From Escherichia coli (lineage in GTDB: Bacteria > Pseudomonadota > Gammaproteobacteria > Enterobacterales > Enterobacteriaceae): a stretch of 64,000 nt of DNA. Shown piece after piece: positions 2,753 to 25,067 of the stretch. Position 1 is the stretch's first letter; every line of letters starts with the position of its first letter. The DNA is taken from assembly GCF_011045215.1 (NCBI RefSeq), contig NZ_CP049201.1; one strand, written 5' to 3'. The position numbers were made by a program, and so were the translations under genes. The notes under the pieces were generated by a model. That model saw only the letters and a program-made list of their open reading frames with translations. It was not told where the DNA came from and did not search any database.

Positions 2753-4242
2753 TGTTGTGCCTGGCGAATCTGTGCACTGACATCCTGTAGGCTGGCTTCA
2801 ATGCGACCTAACCAGTCGCCAGGGATAAACAGACATCTTTGCTGTTCGCTGAATAAAGCGTGTTGCTTGCGCCAGTCGCTTTCAAGCTCTTCCAGTTGTT
2901 GTTTTATTTCACCTGGCAGACCTTCAGCCGATGAACCGGGAAGTGCCAGCGTACTGCCTTGTAAACTTACATCGCGTACAACAAGATGTTGGGCGCTATC
3001 CACTTCCAGATTCAATTTCTGGGCAAAGCCGATACCGTTCAGTTTGCCGCGAATTTCACCACCTTTACTCAGCCACTGTTCCAGCGCGTTACGCTCAAAG
3101 GAGATATGAACCACTTCCATATCATGCAATTTTAACGGTTTTTGCAGCAGCAGAGTCAGAGTGGAAGCAGTAACGTTAACAGGAAGTTGATACTGCTGAC
3201 GACGGCTGAAAATGCCGCCCAGACGAATTACCGTTAAGGCTGTTTTATCGCTTTGTTGCTGCTGGAGTTGCAGGTGACGTTGCACAATCGCGCCAAGGCG
3301 AGTCAACATCCCTTGCTGTTGCCAGGCGTGACCGGTCATCAATACATCAATTTGTTGTTGTATCAAATTCAGGCTTTGCGCGTCATACCACAGGCAATCT
3401 TTTAGCAAAATGAGATCAACCGGGGCAACAGCACTGCGACCGCTAAAAAAGGCGCTGGCCTGCAATAATCGAATCGCTTTTTTCCAGCGACGATCCGAGA
3501 CATAAGGCGCATCCGGTAATTTATCCAGTTGCTGGCGCAGCATAAAAATCAGCTCAAATACATGATCGGGCAGCGTAATTTCACCAATCTCTTTCTGCCA
3601 GCGTTCATATTCTTCATCTGTGACCTGCAAGGAGGCTGGAACCGGATTGTCATTTTCATCCTGTTGACTGGTCAGCATGGAGCGGAAATTCGCTTTATCC
3701 TGCACTTTATCTAACCACAGACGAATCAGCATGCGGTCATATAACGCTTCCAGACTGCTGTCTGCTTCCGGCAGCTCGTTGGAGGCCGCCACCAGTAGAC
3801 GCATCGGGATTTTTTCTACGTGTGCACCGTTGCGGAACTGGCGCTCGTTAATGGCGGTGAGCAAGGTATTAAGAATTGCCGGGCCCGCTTTCCAGATCTC
3901 ATCCAGAAAGACAATTTCTGCTTCTGGCAGGTAACCGCTGGTTAAACGTTCATAGCGCCCTTCATCTTTTAGCGCCTGAATAGAAAGGGGACCAAAAACC
4001 TCTTCCGGCGTGGAGAAGCGAGTCATCAGATATTCAAACGCGCGGGCATTCTGAAAGGCGAATTTTAAGCGCCGGGCGATCAAACTTTTGGCAATACCTG
4101 GCGGGCCAAGGAGGAACACACTTTCACCACTTAATGCCGCTAATAAACACAAGCGGATGGCGTGGCTACGTTCATAAAGCCCCTTTTCCAACGAACTGCT
4201 CAGGCGGGAAATTCTTTCCGCTAATAAATGAGGGTGAGCCAT
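2746..4242 (-). CDS. ravA: AAA+ ATPase RavA
   Basis: ORF 2746..4266; start placed at internal Met ([14 protein letters not shown]...); Walker A GPPGIAKS present. Confidence 0.9.
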
Positions 4243-4464
4243 AATGAAGTGGCGTCCTTTCGTCAAAAGTTCTGCGTAAATTGCGAGTATAGACGTTTCT
4301 TGCTGGTGGCTAAAATAGTCTCAAAGGGGGGGTATTTTTCTTTGAGCCAGGTTAATGTGGCCGCATTTAGGAGTACGATTTTGCCGTTAATCGTGCATAC
4401 TGTGCGCTTTTTTGTGGGCCAAGGGACTAAGCACACATTTCATATTTCAACGAAAGACTAGTCT

Positions 4465-6333
4465 ATGAGCACTGATAATAAGCAATCATTGCCCGCGATT
4501 ACCCTCGCGGCGATTGGAGTTGTCTACGGCGATATTGGTACCAGCCCGTTATATACACTTCGTGAATGTTTGTCCGGCCAGTTTGGTTTTGGCGTTGAAC
4601 GCGATGCCGTGTTTGGCTTTTTATCGCTGATCTTCTGGCTGCTAATCTTTGTGGTTTCCATTAAATATCTCACCTTCGTGATGCGGGCAGATAACGCCGG
4701 TGAAGGGGGGATCCTGACGTTGATGTCGCTTGCCGGGCGTAATACGTCGGCGCGAACCACATCAATGCTGGTGATTATGGGGCTAATCGGCGGCAGCTTT
4801 TTCTATGGTGAAGTCGTCATAACACCCGCTATTTCGGTGATGTCAGCCATTGAAGGTCTGGAAATCGTCGCCCCGCAGCTGGATACCTGGATAGTTCCCC
4901 TCTCAATTATCGTTCTCACTTTATTATTTATGATTCAAAAGCATGGCACGGCTATGGTCGGTAAGCTGTTTGCGCCGATCATGCTGACCTGGTTTTTGAT
5001 TCTGGCAGGACTGGGGTTACGTAGCATTATTGCTAACCCGGAAGTGCTGCATGCGCTGAATCCGATGTGGGCGGTGCATTTCTTCCTTGAATACAAAACG
5101 GTTTCTTTTATTGCATTAGGGGCAGTGGTGCTGTCGATTACGGGGGTCGAGGCGCTGTATGCTGATATGGGGCACTTTGGTAAGTTCCCTATTCGCCTGG
5201 CGTGGTTCACCGTCGTATTACCTTCCTTGACCCTTAATTACTTCGGTCAGGGAGCGTTGTTGTTAAAGAACCCGGAAGCGATTAAGAACCCGTTCTTCCT
5301 GTTGGCACCGGACTGGGCGCTGATCCCACTGCTGATCATCGCCGCACTGGCGACGGTAATTGCCTCGCAGGCGGTTATTTCGGGCGTCTTCTCATTGACG
5401 CGTCAGGCGGTACGTCTGGGATATTTGTCGCCGATGCGCATTATTCACACCTCCGAAATGGAGTCAGGGCAAATCTATATTCCGTTTGTGAACTGGATGC
5501 TCTATGTCGCGGTCGTGATTGTGATTGTCAGCTTTGAGCACTCCAGCAACCTGGCGGCGGCGTACGGGATTGCGGTGACCGGAACCATGGTGCTGACGTC
5601 TATTCTCTCGACGACTGTGGCACGTCAGAACTGGCACTGGAATAAGTATTTTGTTGCGCTGATCCTGATTGCTTTCCTTTGTGTCGATATTCCATTGTTC
5701 ACCGCTAACCTCGATAAACTGCTCTCCGGCGGCTGGTTGCCATTGAGCCTCGGTACTGTGATGTTTATGGTGATGACCACCTGGAAGAGCGAGCGTTTCC
5801 GCTTGCTGCGGCGGATGCATGAACATGGTAACTCTCTGGAAGCGATGATTGCTTCGCTGGAGAAATCACCGCCCGTTCGCGTGCCCGGGACCGCGGTGTA
5901 TATGTCGCGTGCAATCAACGTCATTCCCTTTGCGCTGATGCATAACCTTAAACATAACAAGGTATTGCATGAGAGGGTTATTCTGTTAACTCTGCGCACC
6001 GAAGACGCGCCATATGTCCATAACGTCCGTCGGGTACAGATTGAACAACTGTCGCCCACTTTCTGGCGCGTGGTGGCAAGTTATGGTTGGCGAGAAACGC
6101 CAAACGTGGAAGAAGTTTTCCACCGCTGCGGTCTGGAAGGATTAAGTTGCCGGATGATGGAAACCTCCTTCTTTATGTCGCATGAGTCGTTGATCCTCGG
6201 CAAACGCCCGTGGTATTTGCGTCTGCGCGGCAAGCTGTACTTGCTGCTGCAACGTAATGCGCTGCGTGCACCAGATCAATTTGAAATCCCGCCAAACAGG
6301 GTTATCGAACTGGGTACTCAGGTCGAAATCTAA
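4465..6333 (+). CDS. kup: low-affinity K+ uptake transporter Kup
   Basis: 622-aa polytopic membrane [33 protein letters not shown]... Confidence 0.95.
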
Positions 6334-21597: not shown

Positions 21598-22956
21598 TTA
21601 TGTCAGTAGTTTTTGCAGATGGATGAGCAAACGGTCAATCGCACGATAGCTAACTGCCTCCTGCAAATGCTGACGTGTGATAATGTCAGACTGATCAATA
21701 TCAGCAATGGTTCGTGCAACTTTCAATAACCGCTGCCAGGCACGAATCGATAACCCCAGATGGATCAGCGTTTCTTCCAGCCACTGCGCATCTTCGCTCT
21801 CAAGCTTGCAGAATTTGCGTATTTCCGGACTATCCAGCCAGGCATTCAGTTTATTCTGCCGCTTAAATTGGCGCTCTCTGGCGGCCATTACGCGTTGTTT
21901 AACGGTGGCGCTGCTTTCTCCCGGCACTACCGTTTTACTCAAAATGCCGGGGGGTGGTAATGGGATCTCCAGTGAGAGATCGAAGCGGTCGAGAAAGGGC
22001 CCCGAGAGCCGGTTGAGATAACGTAATGTCTGTTCTGGCGTGCAGCGGTTATGGTTTCCCTGATAATGTCCGGTAGGGCTGGGATTCATCGCCGCAACAA
22101 GCTGGAAACGGGCTGGATAGGTTATTTTTGCTCGTGTGCGTGAAAGATGGATCTGCCCGGATTCAATCGGCTCTCGCAAAGCATCCAGTGTACGCCGTTC
22201 AAATTCAGGTAGCTCATCAAGAAAAAGCACGCCGTTATGCGCCAACGAAATTTCACCAGGCCCTGGAATTGCACCACCGCCCACCATCGCAGTTAACGAC
22301 GCACTGTGATGCGGTGAGCGGAACGGGCGCTGCCGCCATTGTTTTTGTACTGATTCAGCATTTACCAGACTTAATATCGCAGCGCTCTCCAGTGCCTCTT
22401 CATTGCTTAAATCTGGCAAAAGACCATTAATACGGCTGGCGAGCATTGTTTTACCTGTTCCCGGCGGTCCAATCAGTAAAAGGTTGTGCCCACCAGCGGC
22501 GGTAATTTCCAGTCCTCGCTTTCCTTGCTCCTGACCGACAACATCACTGAGATCATGTTGTAGCGCCCGGGATACTGCATCAGTTGGTTTCGGGCGTTCG
22601 AGAGTGTGCTTACCTTCCAGAAACGCACAGACAGCCTGCAGATGATCGGCTATCAAGCATCCTTCTCCGTTAATTAGCCCCACTTCATCTTCGTTATCTT
22701 TCGCGACGATAATTTTTCTGCCCGACTTAATAGCTTCAGTTGCACTGGAGATTGCGCCGGGAACGCCACGCAGAGCGCCTGTAAGCGCCAGTTCTCCGAC
22801 TAATTCATATTCATCTAACTTATTGGCTGTAAGCTGTTCTGAGGCCGCCAGCAACGCAATGGCGATAGGTAAATCATATCGTCCCCCTTCTTTTGGTAGA
22901 TCGGCTGGAGCAAGGTTAATGGTGATTTTTTTCGCCGGATATTCATATCCGCTATT
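21598..22956 (-). pseudogene. comM: comM C-terminal fragment (Mg-chelatase-like AAA+ competence protein), separated from its 5-prime end by the island
   Basis: ORF 21598..23001; ComM-like sequence from ...NSGYEYPAKKITINLAPADLPKEGGRYDLPIAIALL onward; the first codons (GTG at 23001, MIYQLDSISYANLV) are island-derived. Confidence 0.85.
22947..22956. repeat. left junction direct repeat (att core copy) ATCCGCTATT
   Basis: Identical 10-mer at 35360..35369; comM coding sequence is continuous across the two copies if the intervening DNA is removed. Confidence 0.8.
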
Positions 22957-23026
22957 TATAACTAAATTCGCATAACTTATTGAATCTAATTGATAAATCA
23001 CACTATAAATAACGTTAGAAATCGCA

Positions 23027-23084
23027 AATTAACTACACCATTAACTACACCGTTCGGTGCACTGTATGGAACAACTTGGAACAA
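23027..23084. repeat. left-arm repeat module: tandem ATTAACTACACC x2 plus GGAACAA x2 (putative integrase arm-type sites)
   Basis: 26-bp exact match AATTAACTACACCATTAACTACACCG with 35207..35232, then shared GGAACAAC(T/C)TGGAACAA. Confidence 0.6.
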
Positions 23085-23172
23085 ATAGACACAAGCGATA
23101 TACAGGAAGGGACAATTTTTCTATGCAGATTTGCATAGTTCCAAATGAAGCTGGTGGATGATCAGGGATAAC

Positions 23173-23196
23173 CCGATATGGGAATCCCCATATCGG
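23173..23196. repeat. 10-bp-stem inverted repeat CCGATATGGG-AATC-CCCATATCGG
   Basis: Perfect 10-bp inverted repeat with 4-nt spacer; no T-run, so more likely a binding site than a terminator. Confidence 0.5.
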
Positions 23197-23201
23197 CATC
23201 G

Positions 23202-23241
23202 CGTAGTTAATCGTAGTGGCTACCGTAGTAGCCTCCGTAGT
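23202..23241. repeat. phased CGTAGT x4 array
   Basis: CGTAGT at 23202, 23212, 23224 and 23236, spacing about 10 to 12 bp. Confidence 0.55.
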
Positions 23242-23282
23242 TGAGTCGCAGGGATGTAACAACCTGCCAGGAAGGAAATGAT

Positions 23283-23318
23283 CGTGACTCGCCGTGACAT
23301 GACGTGATTAATCGTGAC
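23283..23318. repeat. phased CGTGAC x4 array, exact 10-bp register
   Basis: ATCGTGACTC GCCGTGACAT GACGTGATTA ATCGTGACAC: core at 23283, 23293, 23303, 23313. Confidence 0.6.
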
Positions 23319-23386
23319 ACCAAACAAAAAGCCTTACCCGTAGGCTTAATGCTTGGCTTGACTGTAGGCTTACCGTAACGCGCCGC

Positions 23387-23566
23387 TCACCGTCGCAGCC
23401 TGTCCGGTTTCCGCCACTGATACGGCCTCACATTATCATGCTGGTGGCGTTCCTGTTGCAGCACAACGGAAACAGGCGCTGAACACCTGTTAATTTTGCT
23501 TGCTGGTTGTTTGATTCCGGCAATGCTGCGGATCATCTTCAGCAAATCGGCTTCGGTGATGGTCAT
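23387..23566 (-). CDS. small hypothetical protein, 59 aa (below the ORF-track threshold)
   Basis: Hand translation MTITEADLLKMIRSIAGIKQPASKINRCSAPVSVVLQQERHQHDNVRPYQWRKPDRLRR with AAGGTG-like SD upstream of the ATG. Confidence 0.35.
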   Translation of the reverse strand: MTITEADLLKMIRSIAGIKQPASKINRCSAPVSVVLQQERHQHDNVRPYQWRKPDRLRR

Positions 23567-23598
23567 GGTTTACACCTTAGGAAATCTTAGGGGGCTGG

Positions 23599-23858
23599 TT
23601 GACACTTTCCGGCTTAAGACCTTAACAAACCTTAACATCGCAGGTTGACACACTTGACACTTTTTCGCGAAAAACCTTATCAAACCTTAGCATTTCTAAG
23701 CATGGCAACTTGACACTTTTCGCGATTTTTTTCGGCTTTTTGACGTGGTAAATCTGGCGCAAGGCCAGTAACGGCGGGGCTTACAGCGAGGTTGACACTT
23801 TTTCGCGTTCAGAGTGTAAAGTGTCAACCCGGCAAGCTGCTCAACTTGACACTTTTTG
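23599..23858. repeat. array of six direct and one inverted copies of TTGACAC(T)TTTT(T)CGCG, interleaved with AACCTTAnC repeats
   Basis: Copies start near 23599, 23645, 23654, 23710, 23792, 23846; inverted copy 23821; immediately 3-prime of the HTH gene 23862..24389. Confidence 0.6.
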
Positions 23859-23861
23859 ATG

Positions 23862-24389
23862 TCATTGATGGTCTGATTTTTCCCATTCAGCCAGGGCGTT
23901 TAGCCCGGCTTCACTCCATGATTCCAGTTCATCGGCATAATCACCTGCAACATAGCAGAGTTCGCAACGCAGCATACGAATTGCCAGCCTGGCATTACCT
24001 CGCAAATTGTATTGTTCAAAGTAATGCTGCCCGTCGCAATCCTCAAGGCAGATAGCACCATCATCAAGAAAGTGCACTTCCCAGCCTAATTCCCCGGCTG
24101 CATCCAGCACACGCTGCTGTATGCCCTCGTCCGTTGCTGGCGCAGGAATTTTACCGTCTCTGGCCTTAACTGCTTTCCAGAACTCGCCCCACGTCATTTC
24201 CAGCGTTCTCTCTGGCCACATTTCAGAAACTGTGTCTTTTCCCTGTGCTGGTGGGCTGTTCCGCTGCTCTGTCGCTTCCACATCGATTTTTTTACCGGAC
24301 ATGACCACTTCGCCTTTCTCGATCCAGTCGTAAACTGTCTGGCGGCTTACGCCTTTGTGTTTGGCATATTCTGCCTTACTCATCAGCAT
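23862..24389 (-). CDS. island protein A: N-terminal HTH (excisionase / terminase-small-subunit-like) with C-terminal Cys pairs
   Basis: 175-aa ORF MLMSKAEYAKHKGVSRQTVYDWIEKGEVV...; C-terminal CLEDC and CELC pairs; assignment by eye only. Confidence 0.4.
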   Translation of the reverse strand: MLMSKAEYAKHKGVSRQTVYDWIEKGEVVMSGKKIDVEATEQRNSPPAQGKDTVSEMWPERTLEMTWGEFWKAVKARDGKIPAPATDEGIQQRVLDAAGELGWEVHFLDDGAICLEDCDGQHYFEQYNLRGNARLAIRMLRCELCYVAGDYADELESWSEAGLNALAEWEKSDHQ

Positions 24390-24395
24390 TATGAC

Positions 24396-25067
24396 TCACC
24401 CTTCTTTTTCCAGTTGAGCCAGCCGCCCGGATATTTCTTCCAGTTTTTCCAGGGCTGGCTTGCAGGCCGCATCAATAACGTCCCGGACCATTCCGGCAAG
24501 CTGCTCTTCTGCTGTCGGCGTTGTTACCTCCACACCCGATGGTTTCCCATCCTTATCCCATACGCCCAACGGTACGAGTGCAACGTGATCGATAAGAAAT
24601 GGCGTACCCTCAATAAAAAAATTGTCCTCGCCCATTACATCAGGAACTTCAGCCCCACCGGACGCACCACAAAACACAACCGACGGACTGGTGGATACCT
24701 CCCCCCGTGCTTTCTGGATGTAATCGATGATTTCCTGCCCGTAAATCCGGCATACGCCCCACACCTCGTCACCGCGAATATACGGCAACATGACGGTGCC
24801 AATAATGCGCGACCGTTCGCCCACGTCTTCAAGGGTTTTGCTTTCGGGATGGTCGATAATGACGGGTACTCCGGCGCAACGTTCCAGGAACTGCGGATTG
24901 AGATAAGTTTGCGGTGAACGCCAGACAAATTCTTTTTCTTCGGCGCGGTAGGCCATTCCGGTTCCTGTGATACGCAGGTTAACCAGCCACATGTTGGAAA
25001 ACTGATAAGGCGACGGTAGCTGTCCGTCCCGAATCTGCTTCGCCGCCTCAATTTCTGTTAAAAGCAT
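24396..25067 (-). CDS. island protein B, hypothetical (223 aa)
   Basis: Protein-like ORF MLLTEIEAAKQIRDGQLPSPYQF..., same strand and operon as A and C; no family recognised. Confidence 0.45.
   Translation of the reverse strand: MLLTEIEAAKQIRDGQLPSPYQFSNMWLVNLRITGTGMAYRAEEKEFVWRSPQTYLNPQFLERCAGVPVIIDHPESKTLEDVGERSRIIGTVMLPYIRGDEVWGVCRIYGQEIIDYIQKARGEVSTSPSVVFCGASGGAEVPDVMGEDNFFIEGTPFLIDHVALVPLGVWDKDGKPSGVEVTTPTAEEQLAGMVRDVIDAACKPALEKLEEISGRLAQLEKEG

What the first reader, a model, noticed from the sequence alone, without database searches (positions are those of the whole stretch)
23173..23318. Helically phased short-repeat arrays in the non-coding left arm
Within 150 bp there is a perfect 10-bp-stem inverted repeat, four CGTAGT copies at roughly one-turn spacing, and four CGTGAC copies in exact 10-bp register. 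Ten-base phasing puts every copy on the same DNA face, the signature of cooperative protein binding. Nothing in a standard gene annotation accounts for this. Candidates are a packaging recognition site, a partition-like site, or binding sites for a helper-phage protein.
Basis: seen in the sequence. Interest (0 to 1): 0.6.

Follow-up and report, generated by a model that had tools for sequence, protein, structure and literature searches.

The report
Phage-origin-type repeats on a satellite island
The short repeats are real and lie in the optional-cargo slot of a phage-parasitic island; one array copies the sites where a very common E. coli prophage replication starter protein binds, so the island probably captures or exploits that phage protein.

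Summary
There is a perfect 10-bp inverted repeat at 23173-23196. CGTAGT occurs four times at 23202-23241, spaced 10/12/12. CGTGAC occurs three times plus one CGTGAT at 23283-23318, in exact 10-bp register.

The region is the integrase-distal, non-coding end of a ~12.4-kb PICI-type phage satellite inserted in yifB. The two arrays exactly fill the slot that holds accessory or defence genes in sister islands. Only 24 of 5426 E. coli genomes carry them, so they are not a core packaging, excision or replication site.

The CGTGAC array aligns 31/38, with an 18-nt exact run, to the origin iterons inside the O-like "replisome organizer" gene of E. coli temperate phages. That gene type occurs in 38% of E. 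coli genomes, but the island encodes no such initiator. Stand-alone arrays of the same motif and period sit beside terL in two other satellite lineages.

Best reading (about 0.45): an accessory, trans-acting binding array for a co-resident or helper phage's replication initiator, working either like SPP1 oriR or as a titration site. Main rival: an inert captured fragment of a phage origin.

The CGTAGT array and the inverted repeat have no identified partner. Packaging-site, partition and integrase-arm readings are not supported.

The parts
22948..22957 (.). attL core ATCCGCTATT of the island; the identical copy at 35362-35371 is attR, giving an island of about 12.4 kb inserted in yifB (context)
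   Evidence: homologous islands begin at query position 41; RefSeq shows yifB split in ETEC1748
23027..23095 (+). Candidate integrase arm-type repeats (TTAACTACACC x2, TGGAACAA x2), duplicated at the other island end, 35207-35275 (context; separate from the finding)
   Evidence: (family D1); islands with other integrases have other repeats here
23145..23200 (.). Conserved island-end block containing the perfect inverted repeat 23173-23182 / 23187-23196; function unknown
   Evidence: present in about 250 E. coli genomes, across integrase types and in an Rpp/cos-type PICI (L006); hairpin changes are one-sided and not compensated; no U-tract
23202..23241 (+). CGTAGT x4 array (starts 23202, 23212, 23224, 23236); second repeat family, binding partner unknown
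   Evidence: unique 4-in-45 cluster; invariant in L002/L003/L004/L266; decayed in degraded islands L128 and L131; no phage match
23242..23282 (.). 41-bp spacer between the arrays, with a 5-bp inverted repeat GCAGG (23248-23252) / CCTGC (23263-23267); not AT-rich
   Evidence: GC about 0.5
23283..23318 (-). Four iteron-like units (CGTGAC, CGTGAC, CGTGAT, CGTGAC on the + strand; GTCACG on the - strand) at exact 10-bp period; matches origin iterons of E. coli phage O-like / 'replisome organizer' initiators
   Evidence: 18-nt identity, window 23282-23299; 31/38 identity, score 22 against shuffles 11±1.3; three units score 12.8-13.8 bits on the phage iteron matrix
23329..23347 (-). Intrinsic terminator (AAGCCU-ACGGGUA-AGGCUU + UUUGUUUGG) ending the leftward operon; right-hand border of the cargo slot
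   Evidence: slot borders seen in L005 and L007
23387..23566 (-). 59-aa ORF, a short member of phrog_1561 (ends YQWRKPDRLRR). The full-length 97-aa homologue follows terL in capsid-forming PICI-like contigs and is itself followed by a GTGAC array

Best explanation
The arrays are optional non-coding cargo at the integrase-distal end of a PICI-type phage satellite.

The CGTGAC array is a stand-alone cluster of four origin-type iterons. These are the sites to which the O-like ('replisome organizer') replication initiator of common E. coli temperate phages binds as an oligomer. The island encodes no such initiator, so the array can only be read in trans, by the initiator of a resident or infecting (helper) phage.

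Inferred consequence: when that phage enters lytic growth, its initiator loads onto island DNA. I favour this over simple origin function because no AT-rich unwinding element adjoins the array and the island has its own primase and origin. Binding would then either act like the second initiator-binding site of SPP1 (oriR, which sits among the late/packaging genes and is thought to stall forks and trigger the concatemer synthesis needed for packaging), or titrate the initiator away from the phage origin as a form of interference.

The CGTAGT array is a second repeat family of the same module. Its hexamers are equally conserved but its reader is unknown. The inverted repeat belongs to a separate conserved island-end block.

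Shown: the anatomy, the slot position, the sequence match to phage iterons, the absence of a cognate gene, and recurrence in other satellites. Inferred: binding itself and its consequence.
For: (1) Context. The island has integrase, AntA/B, Icd-like protein, P4-type primase, ProQ/FinO, PerC and a Nu1-like winged-helix protein. Identical att cores lie at 22948 and 35362.

(2) Slot. The arrays lie exactly between the conserved end block and the terminator. Sister islands have sieB, a DUF4747 pair, a SEFIR/TIR gene or other DNA there.

(3) Sequence match. The gene annotated 'DNA replication protein O' / 'phage replisome organizer' in phages vB_EcoS-640R1 and Tritos contains GTCAC arrays of 4 and 5 units at 10-11 bp. 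The island array aligns to the second of these at 31/38 with an 18-nt exact run. The score is 22 against 11±1.3 (maximum 15) for shuffles. Three island units score 12.8-13.8 bits on a matrix built from 20 phage iterons, all on one strand at 10/20-bp spacing.

(4) Generality. Of 120 IMG/VR loci with GTGAC at a 10-bp period, 49 lie inside initiator-like genes, always on the strand opposite the gene. PHROG 'replication initiation protein' matches reach E = 2e-119. A control motif, GTAGT, gave 0 of 117.

(5) Other satellites. 26 of the 120 loci are satellite-like contigs with a stand-alone array beside terL, portal or phrog_1561. They include a capsid-forming-PICI-like element with capsid, protease, portal, HNH, terS, terL, phrog_1561 and then the array. 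In those families GTGAC is invariant while spacers, flanks and copy number (4-8) vary.

(6) No cognate gene. No initiator homologue is found in the window island, its relatives or those satellites. The island's own origin uses different iterons, GGTAGAYA, at 27840-28140.

(7) Partner availability. The initiator gene type is in 2078 of 5426 E. coli genomes.

(8) Precedent. SPP1 gp38 binds direct repeats both inside gene 38 (oriL) and at oriR in the late region, and fork stalling at gp38-oriR is proposed to start concatemer synthesis (PMC6316719).
Against: - No binding or replication data exist; everything is sequence inference.
- The 18-nt match alone has a BLAST E-value of 4. Its weight comes from landing in an iteron array of the same period.
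- Spacer identity with the phage array suggests recent capture, so the 'conserved hexamer, variable spacer' pattern may be inherited from the phage rather than selected in the island.
- In the ~87%-identity island lineage (L003, L004) two of the four units have decayed to CATGAC and GATGAC. L129 and L130 lack this array entirely.
- Only 24 of 5426 genomes carry the arrays.
- No AT-rich unwinding element or (GATAAAGATACA)n tract adjoins the island array, unlike the phage origins.
- The phage initiator's match to Pfam Phage_rep_org_N is not significant (i-E 0.24). The SPP1 analogy therefore rests on annotation and architecture, not on demonstrated homology.
- The CGTAGT array is not explained by this model.
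- Co-occurrence with initiator-bearing prophages could not be tested.
Confidence: 0.45

Rival explanations
1. Inert relic. A short piece of a phage replication origin (plus an unrelated repeat tract) was captured by recombination in the island's cargo hotspot. It persists for a while with no function.
For: The slot is highly variable and the arrays are rare (24 of 5426 genomes). Spacer-level identity with the phage array implies recent common descent. Two units are decayed in L003/L004, one CGTAGT unit is deleted in L129/L130, and motif positions mutate at least as often as spacers in L128 and L131. No unwinding element is present.
Against: Similarity to the phage gene stops exactly at the iterons, and no flanking coding sequence was co-captured. 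Stand-alone arrays of the same motif recur at equivalent positions in two other satellite lineages, with GTGAC invariant while flanks diverge (phrog_1561 proteins down to 62% identity). The CGTAGT hexamers are perfectly kept in four islands that differ at 5-13% elsewhere.
Confidence: 0.27
2. Packaging recognition site. The arrays act as cosB- or pac-like binding sites for the island's Nu1-like 175-aa protein or the helper's small terminase, with cleavage in the spacer between them.
For: The architecture recalls P1 pac (two hexamer clusters flanking a cleavage region; from memory) and lambda cosB R sites. The island encodes a 175-aa protein whose N-terminus matches the small-terminase family phrog_57 (E = 1.4e-7). 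The arrays lie downstream of the packaging-module genes.
Against: There is no lambda-like cosQ/cosN; the local alignment to the lambda cos region and to the bona fide cos of PICI L006 scores 21 in each case, which I judged chance-level without a shuffle control. The arrays are absent from most islands that carry the same 175-aa and 59-aa genes, including one at the same att site. The repeat that travels with the 175-aa gene across genera is a different one, TTGACAC/GTGTCAA. No phage carries a similar sequence.
Confidence: 0.07
3. Binding array for some other regulator: a host response-regulator-type protein, the island's AlpA or PerC, or a different phage protein. It would control outward transcription towards int after circularisation, or control excision.
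For: Direct repeats at about one helical turn are typical of winged-helix regulators and of Cox/Apl-type excisionases (general knowledge). In the circular form the arrays lie upstream of int on the minus strand. A diverged ACTAC/GTAGT cluster follows the phrog_1561 gene in an unrelated PICI (L006).
Against: No sigma-70-like promoter occurs in 22900-24000. The arrays lie outside the arm-type repeats rather than between them and the core. Presence of the arrays does not track AlpA type, integrase type or replicase type. The arrays are dispensable in sister islands.
Confidence: 0.12
4. Structured RNA: an sRNA, a 3'-UTR element, or a partner for the island's ProQ/FinO protein.
For: Short hairpins are possible (GGCUAC-UACG-GUAGCC, and the 10-bp inverted repeat). 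The island encodes a ProQ/FinO-domain protein.
Against: No Rfam match even at E = 10. Folding is not better than shuffles (z = -1.85 and -1.35). The arrays lie downstream of an intrinsic terminator. Hairpin variants are not compensated. No promoter was found.
Confidence: 0.03

Closest known systems
Origin iterons inside the O-like / 'phage replisome organizer' gene of E. coli temperate phages (vB_EcoS-640R1, Tritos, Evi, 813R8; same gene type in 38% of E. coli genomes)
   Same: Same core motif (GTCACG), same 10-bp period and direct orientation, four units, and spacer-level identity (31/38, with an 18-nt exact run).
   Different: The island array is not inside an initiator gene, and no initiator is encoded in cis. 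It is a single cluster rather than two clusters about 260 bp apart. No adjoining (GATAAAGATACA)n or AT-rich tract is present. It sits in a satellite's cargo slot.
SPP1 oriR (second gp38-binding site in the late/packaging region; PMC6316719)
   Same: It is an initiator-binding direct-repeat cluster placed away from the initiator gene, among or next to packaging genes. It offers a mechanism (fork stalling leading to concatemer synthesis) that would suit an element needing to be packaged.
   Different: SPP1 oriR is in the same genome as its initiator and has an AT-rich unwinding element. Homology between the E. coli initiators and gp38 is not established here (Pfam i-E 0.24). The island array would be read in trans by another element's protein.
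Initiator-titrating or handcuffing iteron clusters of plasmids and chromosomes (P1 incA, E. coli datA); from general knowledge
   Same: These are stand-alone clusters of initiator sites without origin function that modulate replication by binding the initiator.
   Different: Those loci regulate their own replicon. Here the cluster would act on a different replicon (a phage), which has not been described for satellites as far as the searched literature shows.
PICI cos sites with Rpp-specific cosB (EcCICFT073; PMC6739421, PMC9026076)
   Same: Both are cis sites on an E. coli PICI that are read by a complex containing a helper-phage protein.
   Different: Known PICI cos sites have lambda-like cosQ/cosN directly upstream of rpp and are essential for transfer. 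This island shows neither a cosN-like sequence nor conservation of the arrays.
A PICI's own origin (iterons flanking an AT-rich spacer, downstream of pri-rep)
   Same: Short iterons at about one-turn spacing.
   Different: This island's own origin is elsewhere (27840-28140) with a different motif, GGTAGAYA. Array-bearing islands have different replicases and different own iterons.
P1 pac site (two clusters of TGATCA/G hexamers flanking the cleavage region); from memory
   Same: Two hexamer clusters separated by a short spacer.
   Different: Here each cluster has a different hexamer, there is no Dam-site logic and no PacA-type gene, and the arrays are not conserved among sister islands.

Membership tests
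Origin iterons of O-like / replisome-organizer phage initiators | Core motif GTCAC(G) in direct repeats | tested here: met
   Units GGTGTCACGAT, TTAATCACGTC, CATGTCACGGC and CGAGTCACGAT on the minus strand. Three score 12.8-13.8 bits on the phage iteron matrix.
Origin iterons of O-like / replisome-organizer phage initiators | At least 4 units at a 10-11 bp period | tested here: met
   Four units at exactly 10 bp; phage arrays have 4-6 units at 10-11 bp.
Origin iterons of O-like / replisome-organizer phage initiators | Located inside the initiator gene, motif on the gene strand | tested here: not met
   The array is non-coding and stand-alone. No initiator homologue is found in the window or in related islands.
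Origin iterons of O-like / replisome-organizer phage initiators | Second iteron cluster about 260 bp away and an adjoining AT-rich or (GATAAAGATACA)n tract | tested here: not met
   Single cluster; flanks are about 50% GC. The CGTAGT array occupies the analogous side but has a different composition.
Origin iterons of O-like / replisome-organizer phage initiators | Specific binding by the initiator and origin activity | not testable with these tools
   Needs EMSA, ChIP or a replication assay.
Lambda-type cos site (cosQ-cosN-cosB), including Rpp-type PICI cos | cosN (GGGCGGCGACCT-like) with cosQ about 30 bp upstream | tested here: not met
   No match with 3 or fewer mismatches in 22940-24400. 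Alignments to lambda cos and to the clear cos of PICI L006 score 21 in each case, which I judged chance-level without a shuffle control.
Essential cis site of the island (packaging, excision or replication) | Conserved in homologous functional islands | tested here: not met
   The arrays are replaced by sieB, DUF4747 genes, SEFIR or other DNA in sister islands, and are present in 24 of 5426 genomes against 804 with the island's left part.
Integrase arm-type sites | Motif shared by both arms and specific to the integrase type | tested here: not met
   CGTAGT and CGTGAC are absent from the right arm. The identical array occurs with different integrases and arm repeats. Other repeats (TTAACTACACC, TGGAACAA) do meet this test.
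Partition centromere | Adjacent parA/parB-type genes | tested here: not met
   No such family among the ten island ORFs searched.
Intrinsic terminator or structured RNA (for the inverted repeat) | U-tract after the stem, compensatory changes, or an Rfam match | tested here: not met
   No U-tract, one-sided changes only, no Rfam hit.
PICI-type phage satellite (the host element) | int, AlpA-type HTH regulator (from annotation of sister islands; not located in the window), pri-rep with adjacent iteron origin, no tail or lysis genes, size about 10-15 kb, specific att site | tested here: met
   Induction and transfer were not tested.

The most novel reading that the evidence does not exclude
Phage satellites of at least three lineages (this PICI family, capsid-forming-PICI-like elements, and a terL-array-portal family) carry non-coding copies of their helper's origin iterons without the initiator gene. 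They would use them to capture the helper's replication initiator in trans. The captured initiator would either drive or re-programme satellite replication towards packageable concatemers, or starve the phage origin. On that second reading the array would be a protein-free, DNA-only interference or defence cargo sitting in the same hotspot as sieB and TIR-type systems. The CGTAGT array would then be the equivalent trap for a second, still unidentified phage protein.
Probability: 0.3. Interest if true: 0.75.

Novelty: new variant of a known kind. Interest (0 to 1): 0.55.

Why it matters
Satellites are known to hijack helper capsids, terminases and inducers. Their replication is thought to rest on their own primase and origin. 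A satellite-borne, initiator-less copy of a phage origin's binding sites would add a new point of contact, the helper's replication initiator. It would also show that the cargo hotspots of satellites can hold functional non-coding DNA, which gene-based surveys miss.

The idea is directly testable with one purified protein and a 40-bp probe. The candidate partner is present in 38% of complete E. coli genomes. If the array is instead an inert relic, the result is still useful: it documents recombination between phage origins and satellite cargo slots, and it shows that the 'phased repeat' signature alone does not indicate a core cis site.

Tried and rejected
1. Tn7-like transposon end (first guess from the yifB/comM location). 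Rejected: the element has a tyrosine integrase, att core repeats and PICI gene content.

2. Lambda- or Rpp-type cos. The cosN search and alignments to lambda and to the clear cos of PICI L006 were negative. A partial 'GAGCGGCGCG' resemblance at 23380-23400 scored no better (21), which I judged chance-level without a shuffle control.

3. Similarity to deposited phages. Blastn of 22960-23400 and 23380-23900, and tblastn of the 175-aa protein, all gave no match.

4. Rfam and folding of both strands gave nothing. An ARAGORN scan of the related islands L001, L006, L007 and L134, run because their 'module B' looked tRNA-like, found no tRNA or tmRNA there.

5. Outward promoter towards int. No sigma-70-like site was found.

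6. Small ORFs across the arrays (a 9-aa peptide; the 73-aa TTG ORF 23041-23262). They are not conserved and cross integrase-specific DNA.

7. crr-like second site for the island's own replicase. Own-origin iterons differ and do not track the arrays.

8. Genome-collection scan with the inverted-repeat-block pattern. It returned only unrelated hits, so the block is not detectable outside E. coli with that pattern.

9. IMG/VR scans for CGTAGT/GTAGT arrays. Hits were mostly coding repeats or perfect tandem 10-mers with no consistent context. Scans for phage origins carrying both motifs found none apart from the island family itself.

10. Resemblance of GTCAC units to lambda Int arm-type sites (from memory). 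Not pursued after the far closer match to phage iterons.

11. Pfam on the phage initiator. Phage_rep_org_N is only a weak hit, so homology to SPP1 gp38 is not claimed.

Full report
**Observation**

The three features are present at the stated coordinates.
- The inverted repeat is CCGATATGGG (23173-23182) / CCCATATCGG (23187-23196), with a 4-nt loop.
- CGTAGT starts at 23202, 23212, 23224 and 23236, spaced 10/12/12.
- CGTGAC starts at 23283, 23293 and 23313, and CGTGAT at 23303, so the register is exactly 10 bp but one copy is a variant.

CGTAGT is the only non-trivial hexamer in the 64-kb window with four copies inside 45 bp. Markov simulations give 0.005 such clusters per window. Within each array the hexamers are identical while the spacers are unrelated, so the hexamer is the unit.

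**Where it is**

The window is E. coli chromosome (rbs ... yifB | island | yifB 5' end ... ilv). A ~12.4-kb element interrupts yifB, with identical cores ATCCGCTATT at 22948-22957 and 35362-35371. RefSeq annotates the same split of yifB in strain ETEC1748.

All island genes read leftward:
- integrase, 33956-35206
- AntA/B-like protein, 32551-33351
- Icd-like fusion, 30765-32558
- P4-type primase, 28148-29896, followed by its own iteron origin (GGTAGAYA copies in both orientations around an AT-rich spacer, 27840-28140)
- ProQ/FinO-domain protein and PerC
- two halves of phrog_6216 (DUF2213)
- a 175-aa protein whose N-terminus resembles the lambda Nu1 winged helix (phrog_57, E = 1.4e-7)
- a 59-aa ORF, 23387-23566

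This is the gene content and layout of a Gram-negative PICI-type phage satellite (PMC6092414).

Candidate integrase arm sites (TTAACTACACC x2, TGGAACAA x2) occur at both ends. They differ in islands with other integrases. They are separate from the finding.

**The arrays fill a cargo slot**

An intrinsic terminator at 23347-23329 on the minus strand ends the leftward operon. A 56-bp block at 23145-23200 contains the inverted repeat. It is conserved in about 250 E. coli genomes, across integrase types and even in an Rpp/cos-type PICI.

Between these two borders the content varies:
- the two arrays in the window, L002, L003, L004 and L266
- the CGTAGT array plus other DNA in L129 and L130
- sieB in L005
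- a DUF4747 gene pair in L007
- a SEFIR/TIR gene in L128 and in the Citrobacter locus L134
- about 600 bp of other non-coding DNA in L001, which sits at the same yifB site

.

Only 24 of 5426 complete E. coli genomes have the arrays, against 804 that have the island's left part. The arrays are therefore accessory. They are not a core packaging, excision or replication site.

**Packaging-site tests**

There is no lambda-like cosN or cosQ in the arm. The Rpp-type PICI L006 shows a clear cosQ/cosN upstream of its DUF1441 gene, as described in PMC6739421 and PMC9026076.

The repeat that travels with the 175-aa winged-helix gene across genera is a different one: TTGACACTTTT(T)CGCG, six copies at 23599-23861, seen as GTGTCAA in Citrobacter, Serratia and Klebsiella relatives. 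That repeat, not the finding, is the better candidate for a site read by this protein.

**What the CGTGAC array matches**

These were classified with reference proteins by tblastn.
- 49 arrays lie inside replication-initiator genes, always with the motif on the strand opposite the gene. PHROG 'replication initiation protein / O-like' matches reach E = 2e-119.
- 26 lie in ~10-kb satellite-like contigs beside terL, portal or phrog_1561.
- 45 were unclassified.

A control motif, GTAGT, at the same period gave mostly perfect tandem 10-mers, and 0 of 117 lay near those references.

The E. coli representatives are phages Evi, Tritos, vB_EcoS-640R1 and 813R8. Their 'DNA replication protein O' / 'phage replisome organizer' gene contains GTCAC at 10-11 bp in two clusters of 4 and 5, followed by (GATAAAGATACA)n. 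The same architecture appears in distant relatives.

The island array aligns to the second cluster as follows:
- phage: GTCACGAAATGTCACGCACATGTCACGACGAGTCACGA
- island (minus strand): GTCACGATTAATCACG-TCATGTCACGGCGAGTCACGA

This is 31/38 identity. A separate 18-nt exact run (TGTCACGGCGAGTCACGA, window 23282-23299) matches the first two units of that cluster. The alignment score is 22 against 11±1.3 for shuffles. Similarity stops at the iterons. Three island units are among the six best matches in the whole 64-kb window to a matrix built from 20 phage iterons. All three are on one strand and in register.

This initiator gene type is present in 2078 of 5426 E. coli genomes. No homologue is encoded in the window island, its relatives, or the satellites with stand-alone arrays.

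**Recurrence in satellites**

One satellite family is capsid-forming-PICI-like: capsid, protease, portal, adaptor, HNH, terS, terL, a 97-aa phrog_1561 protein, then a 4-5-unit GTGAC array. The window's 59-aa ORF is a short member of phrog_1561 (same C-terminus, Y-Q/H-W-R/K-K-P-D/E-R-L-R-R). The pairing 'small ORF plus array' is therefore shared, although the array's orientation differs.

In that family GTGAC is invariant while spacers, unit number and the whole left flank change. In a second family (terL-array-portal) the copy number ranges from 4 to 8. This argues that such stand-alone arrays are maintained by selection in satellites generally.

**Mechanism**

Established knowledge: O-type initiators oligomerise on iterons. 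In SPP1 the replisome organizer gp38 binds direct repeats both inside its own gene (oriL) and at a second site, oriR. oriR interrupts the late/packaging gene order, and fork stalling at gp38-oriR is proposed to trigger the switch to concatemer synthesis (PMC6316719).

Inference: on this island the array is read in trans by the initiator of a resident or helper phage. No AT-rich unwinding element adjoins it, and the island has its own primase and origin. I therefore favour an initiator-capture role (oriR-like fork arrest, or titration of the initiator as interference) over an autonomous second origin. The slot's other occupants are exclusion and defence genes, which fits an interference role. 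None of this has been tested.

**Weak points**

- Spacer-level identity with the phage array implies recent capture.
- Two units have decayed in the L003/L004 lineage.
- L129 and L130 lack the array.
- The phage initiator's Pfam match to Phage_rep_org_N is not significant.

An inert relic of a phage origin is therefore a serious rival.

**What remains unexplained**

The CGTAGT array has perfectly conserved hexamers in four diverged islands but no match in phages. It has no consistent context in IMG/VR. It bears no relation to any island's own iterons: GGTAGAYA here, CGGGATA in L003, and the P4-type TGTTCACC in L006. A diverged ACTAC/GTAGT cluster follows the phrog_1561 gene of PICI L006.

The inverted-repeat block is conserved as sequence. 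Its hairpin is not kept by compensatory changes, it has no U-tract, and no Rfam family matches.

**Verdict**

Its interpretation as a cooperative protein-binding array is reasonable, and for one array a specific candidate reader, a phage replication initiator, can now be named. The packaging, partition and arm-site readings are not supported. Literature searches found no report of satellites carrying initiator-less helper-type iterons. I rate it a new variant of a known kind, of moderate interest pending a simple binding test.

Noticed in passing
window 23599-23861: Six copies of TTGACACTTTT(T)CGCG (one inverted at 23821), plus paired CCTTAACAAACCTTAACA / CCTTATCAAACCTTAGCA motifs. They lie immediately downstream of the 175-aa Nu1-like winged-helix gene. 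The same GTGTCAA repeats follow homologues of this gene in Citrobacter, Serratia and Klebsiella. This may be the real recognition site of that protein (packaging or regulation).
   Followed up: partly
window 27840-28140: The island's own probable origin. At least 12 GGTAGA(T/C)A iterons lie in both orientations around an AT-rich ~70-bp spacer, directly after the P4-type primase gene. Sister islands with other replicases have other iterons (CGGGATA; TGTTCACC as in P4; AAAAGTGGGG).
   Followed up: partly
window 27095-27430: A second repeat field (CCCCACTTTT(T) in direct and inverted copies, spaced about 83-85 bp) lies between the ProQ/FinO gene and the origin. It is the same motif as the dominant repeat in the region next to the RepA-helicase gene (its likely origin) in island L001.
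   Followed up: no
window 23027-23095 and 35207-35275: A 69-nt direct duplication (77% identity) near both island ends carries TTAACTACACC x2 and TGGAACAA x2. These are likely integrase arm-type sites. The att core is ATCCGCTATT.
   Followed up: partly
window 31125-31197 (+): A sub-threshold Rfam match to the SymR antitoxin RNA (37 bits, gathering score 61, E = 5e-4). It lies antisense within the 597-aa ORF whose C-terminus is Icd-like. This may be an antisense RNA regulating a division-inhibitor or toxin gene.
   Followed up: no
L001 16245-16400; L006 14000-14160; L007 11720-11880; L134 8340-8420: An alternative 'module B' follows the inverted-repeat block. The repeat is nested in a larger one (GCTGGTGG ... 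CCACCAGC), followed by a conserved ...GGAGGGGCGGGTCAAATCTCTGTA... segment that is also present in Citrobacter. There is no tRNA/tmRNA or Rfam match, and its function is unknown.
   Followed up: partly
L006 15340-15400 and 17880-17930: The Rpp/DUF1441-type PICI of strain Ecol_224 carries two lambda-like cosQ/cosN sites, as reported for EcCICFT073.
   Followed up: no
L138 (Klebsiella) 4001-5160, compared with L137/L139: A satellite with a homologue of the 175-aa gene is inserted in a prophage major-capsid gene (helper-embedded PICI configuration). In L137/L139 a near-identical copy of that gene, its downstream repeat region and the start of a DUF5681 gene lies among prophage tail and head-completion genes. 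Whether that copy belongs to the helper prophage or to an embedded satellite remnant was not resolved.
   Followed up: partly
IMG/VR loci L175, L169, L230, L149, L259 and others: In many phage initiator genes the GTCAC iterons are directly followed, on the gene strand, by a second array of a different short repeat. Examples are GATAAAGATACA and AGAGAAG-type repeats, which encode low-complexity linkers such as DKDTDKDTD. A two-array architecture is therefore typical of this origin type.
   Followed up: partly
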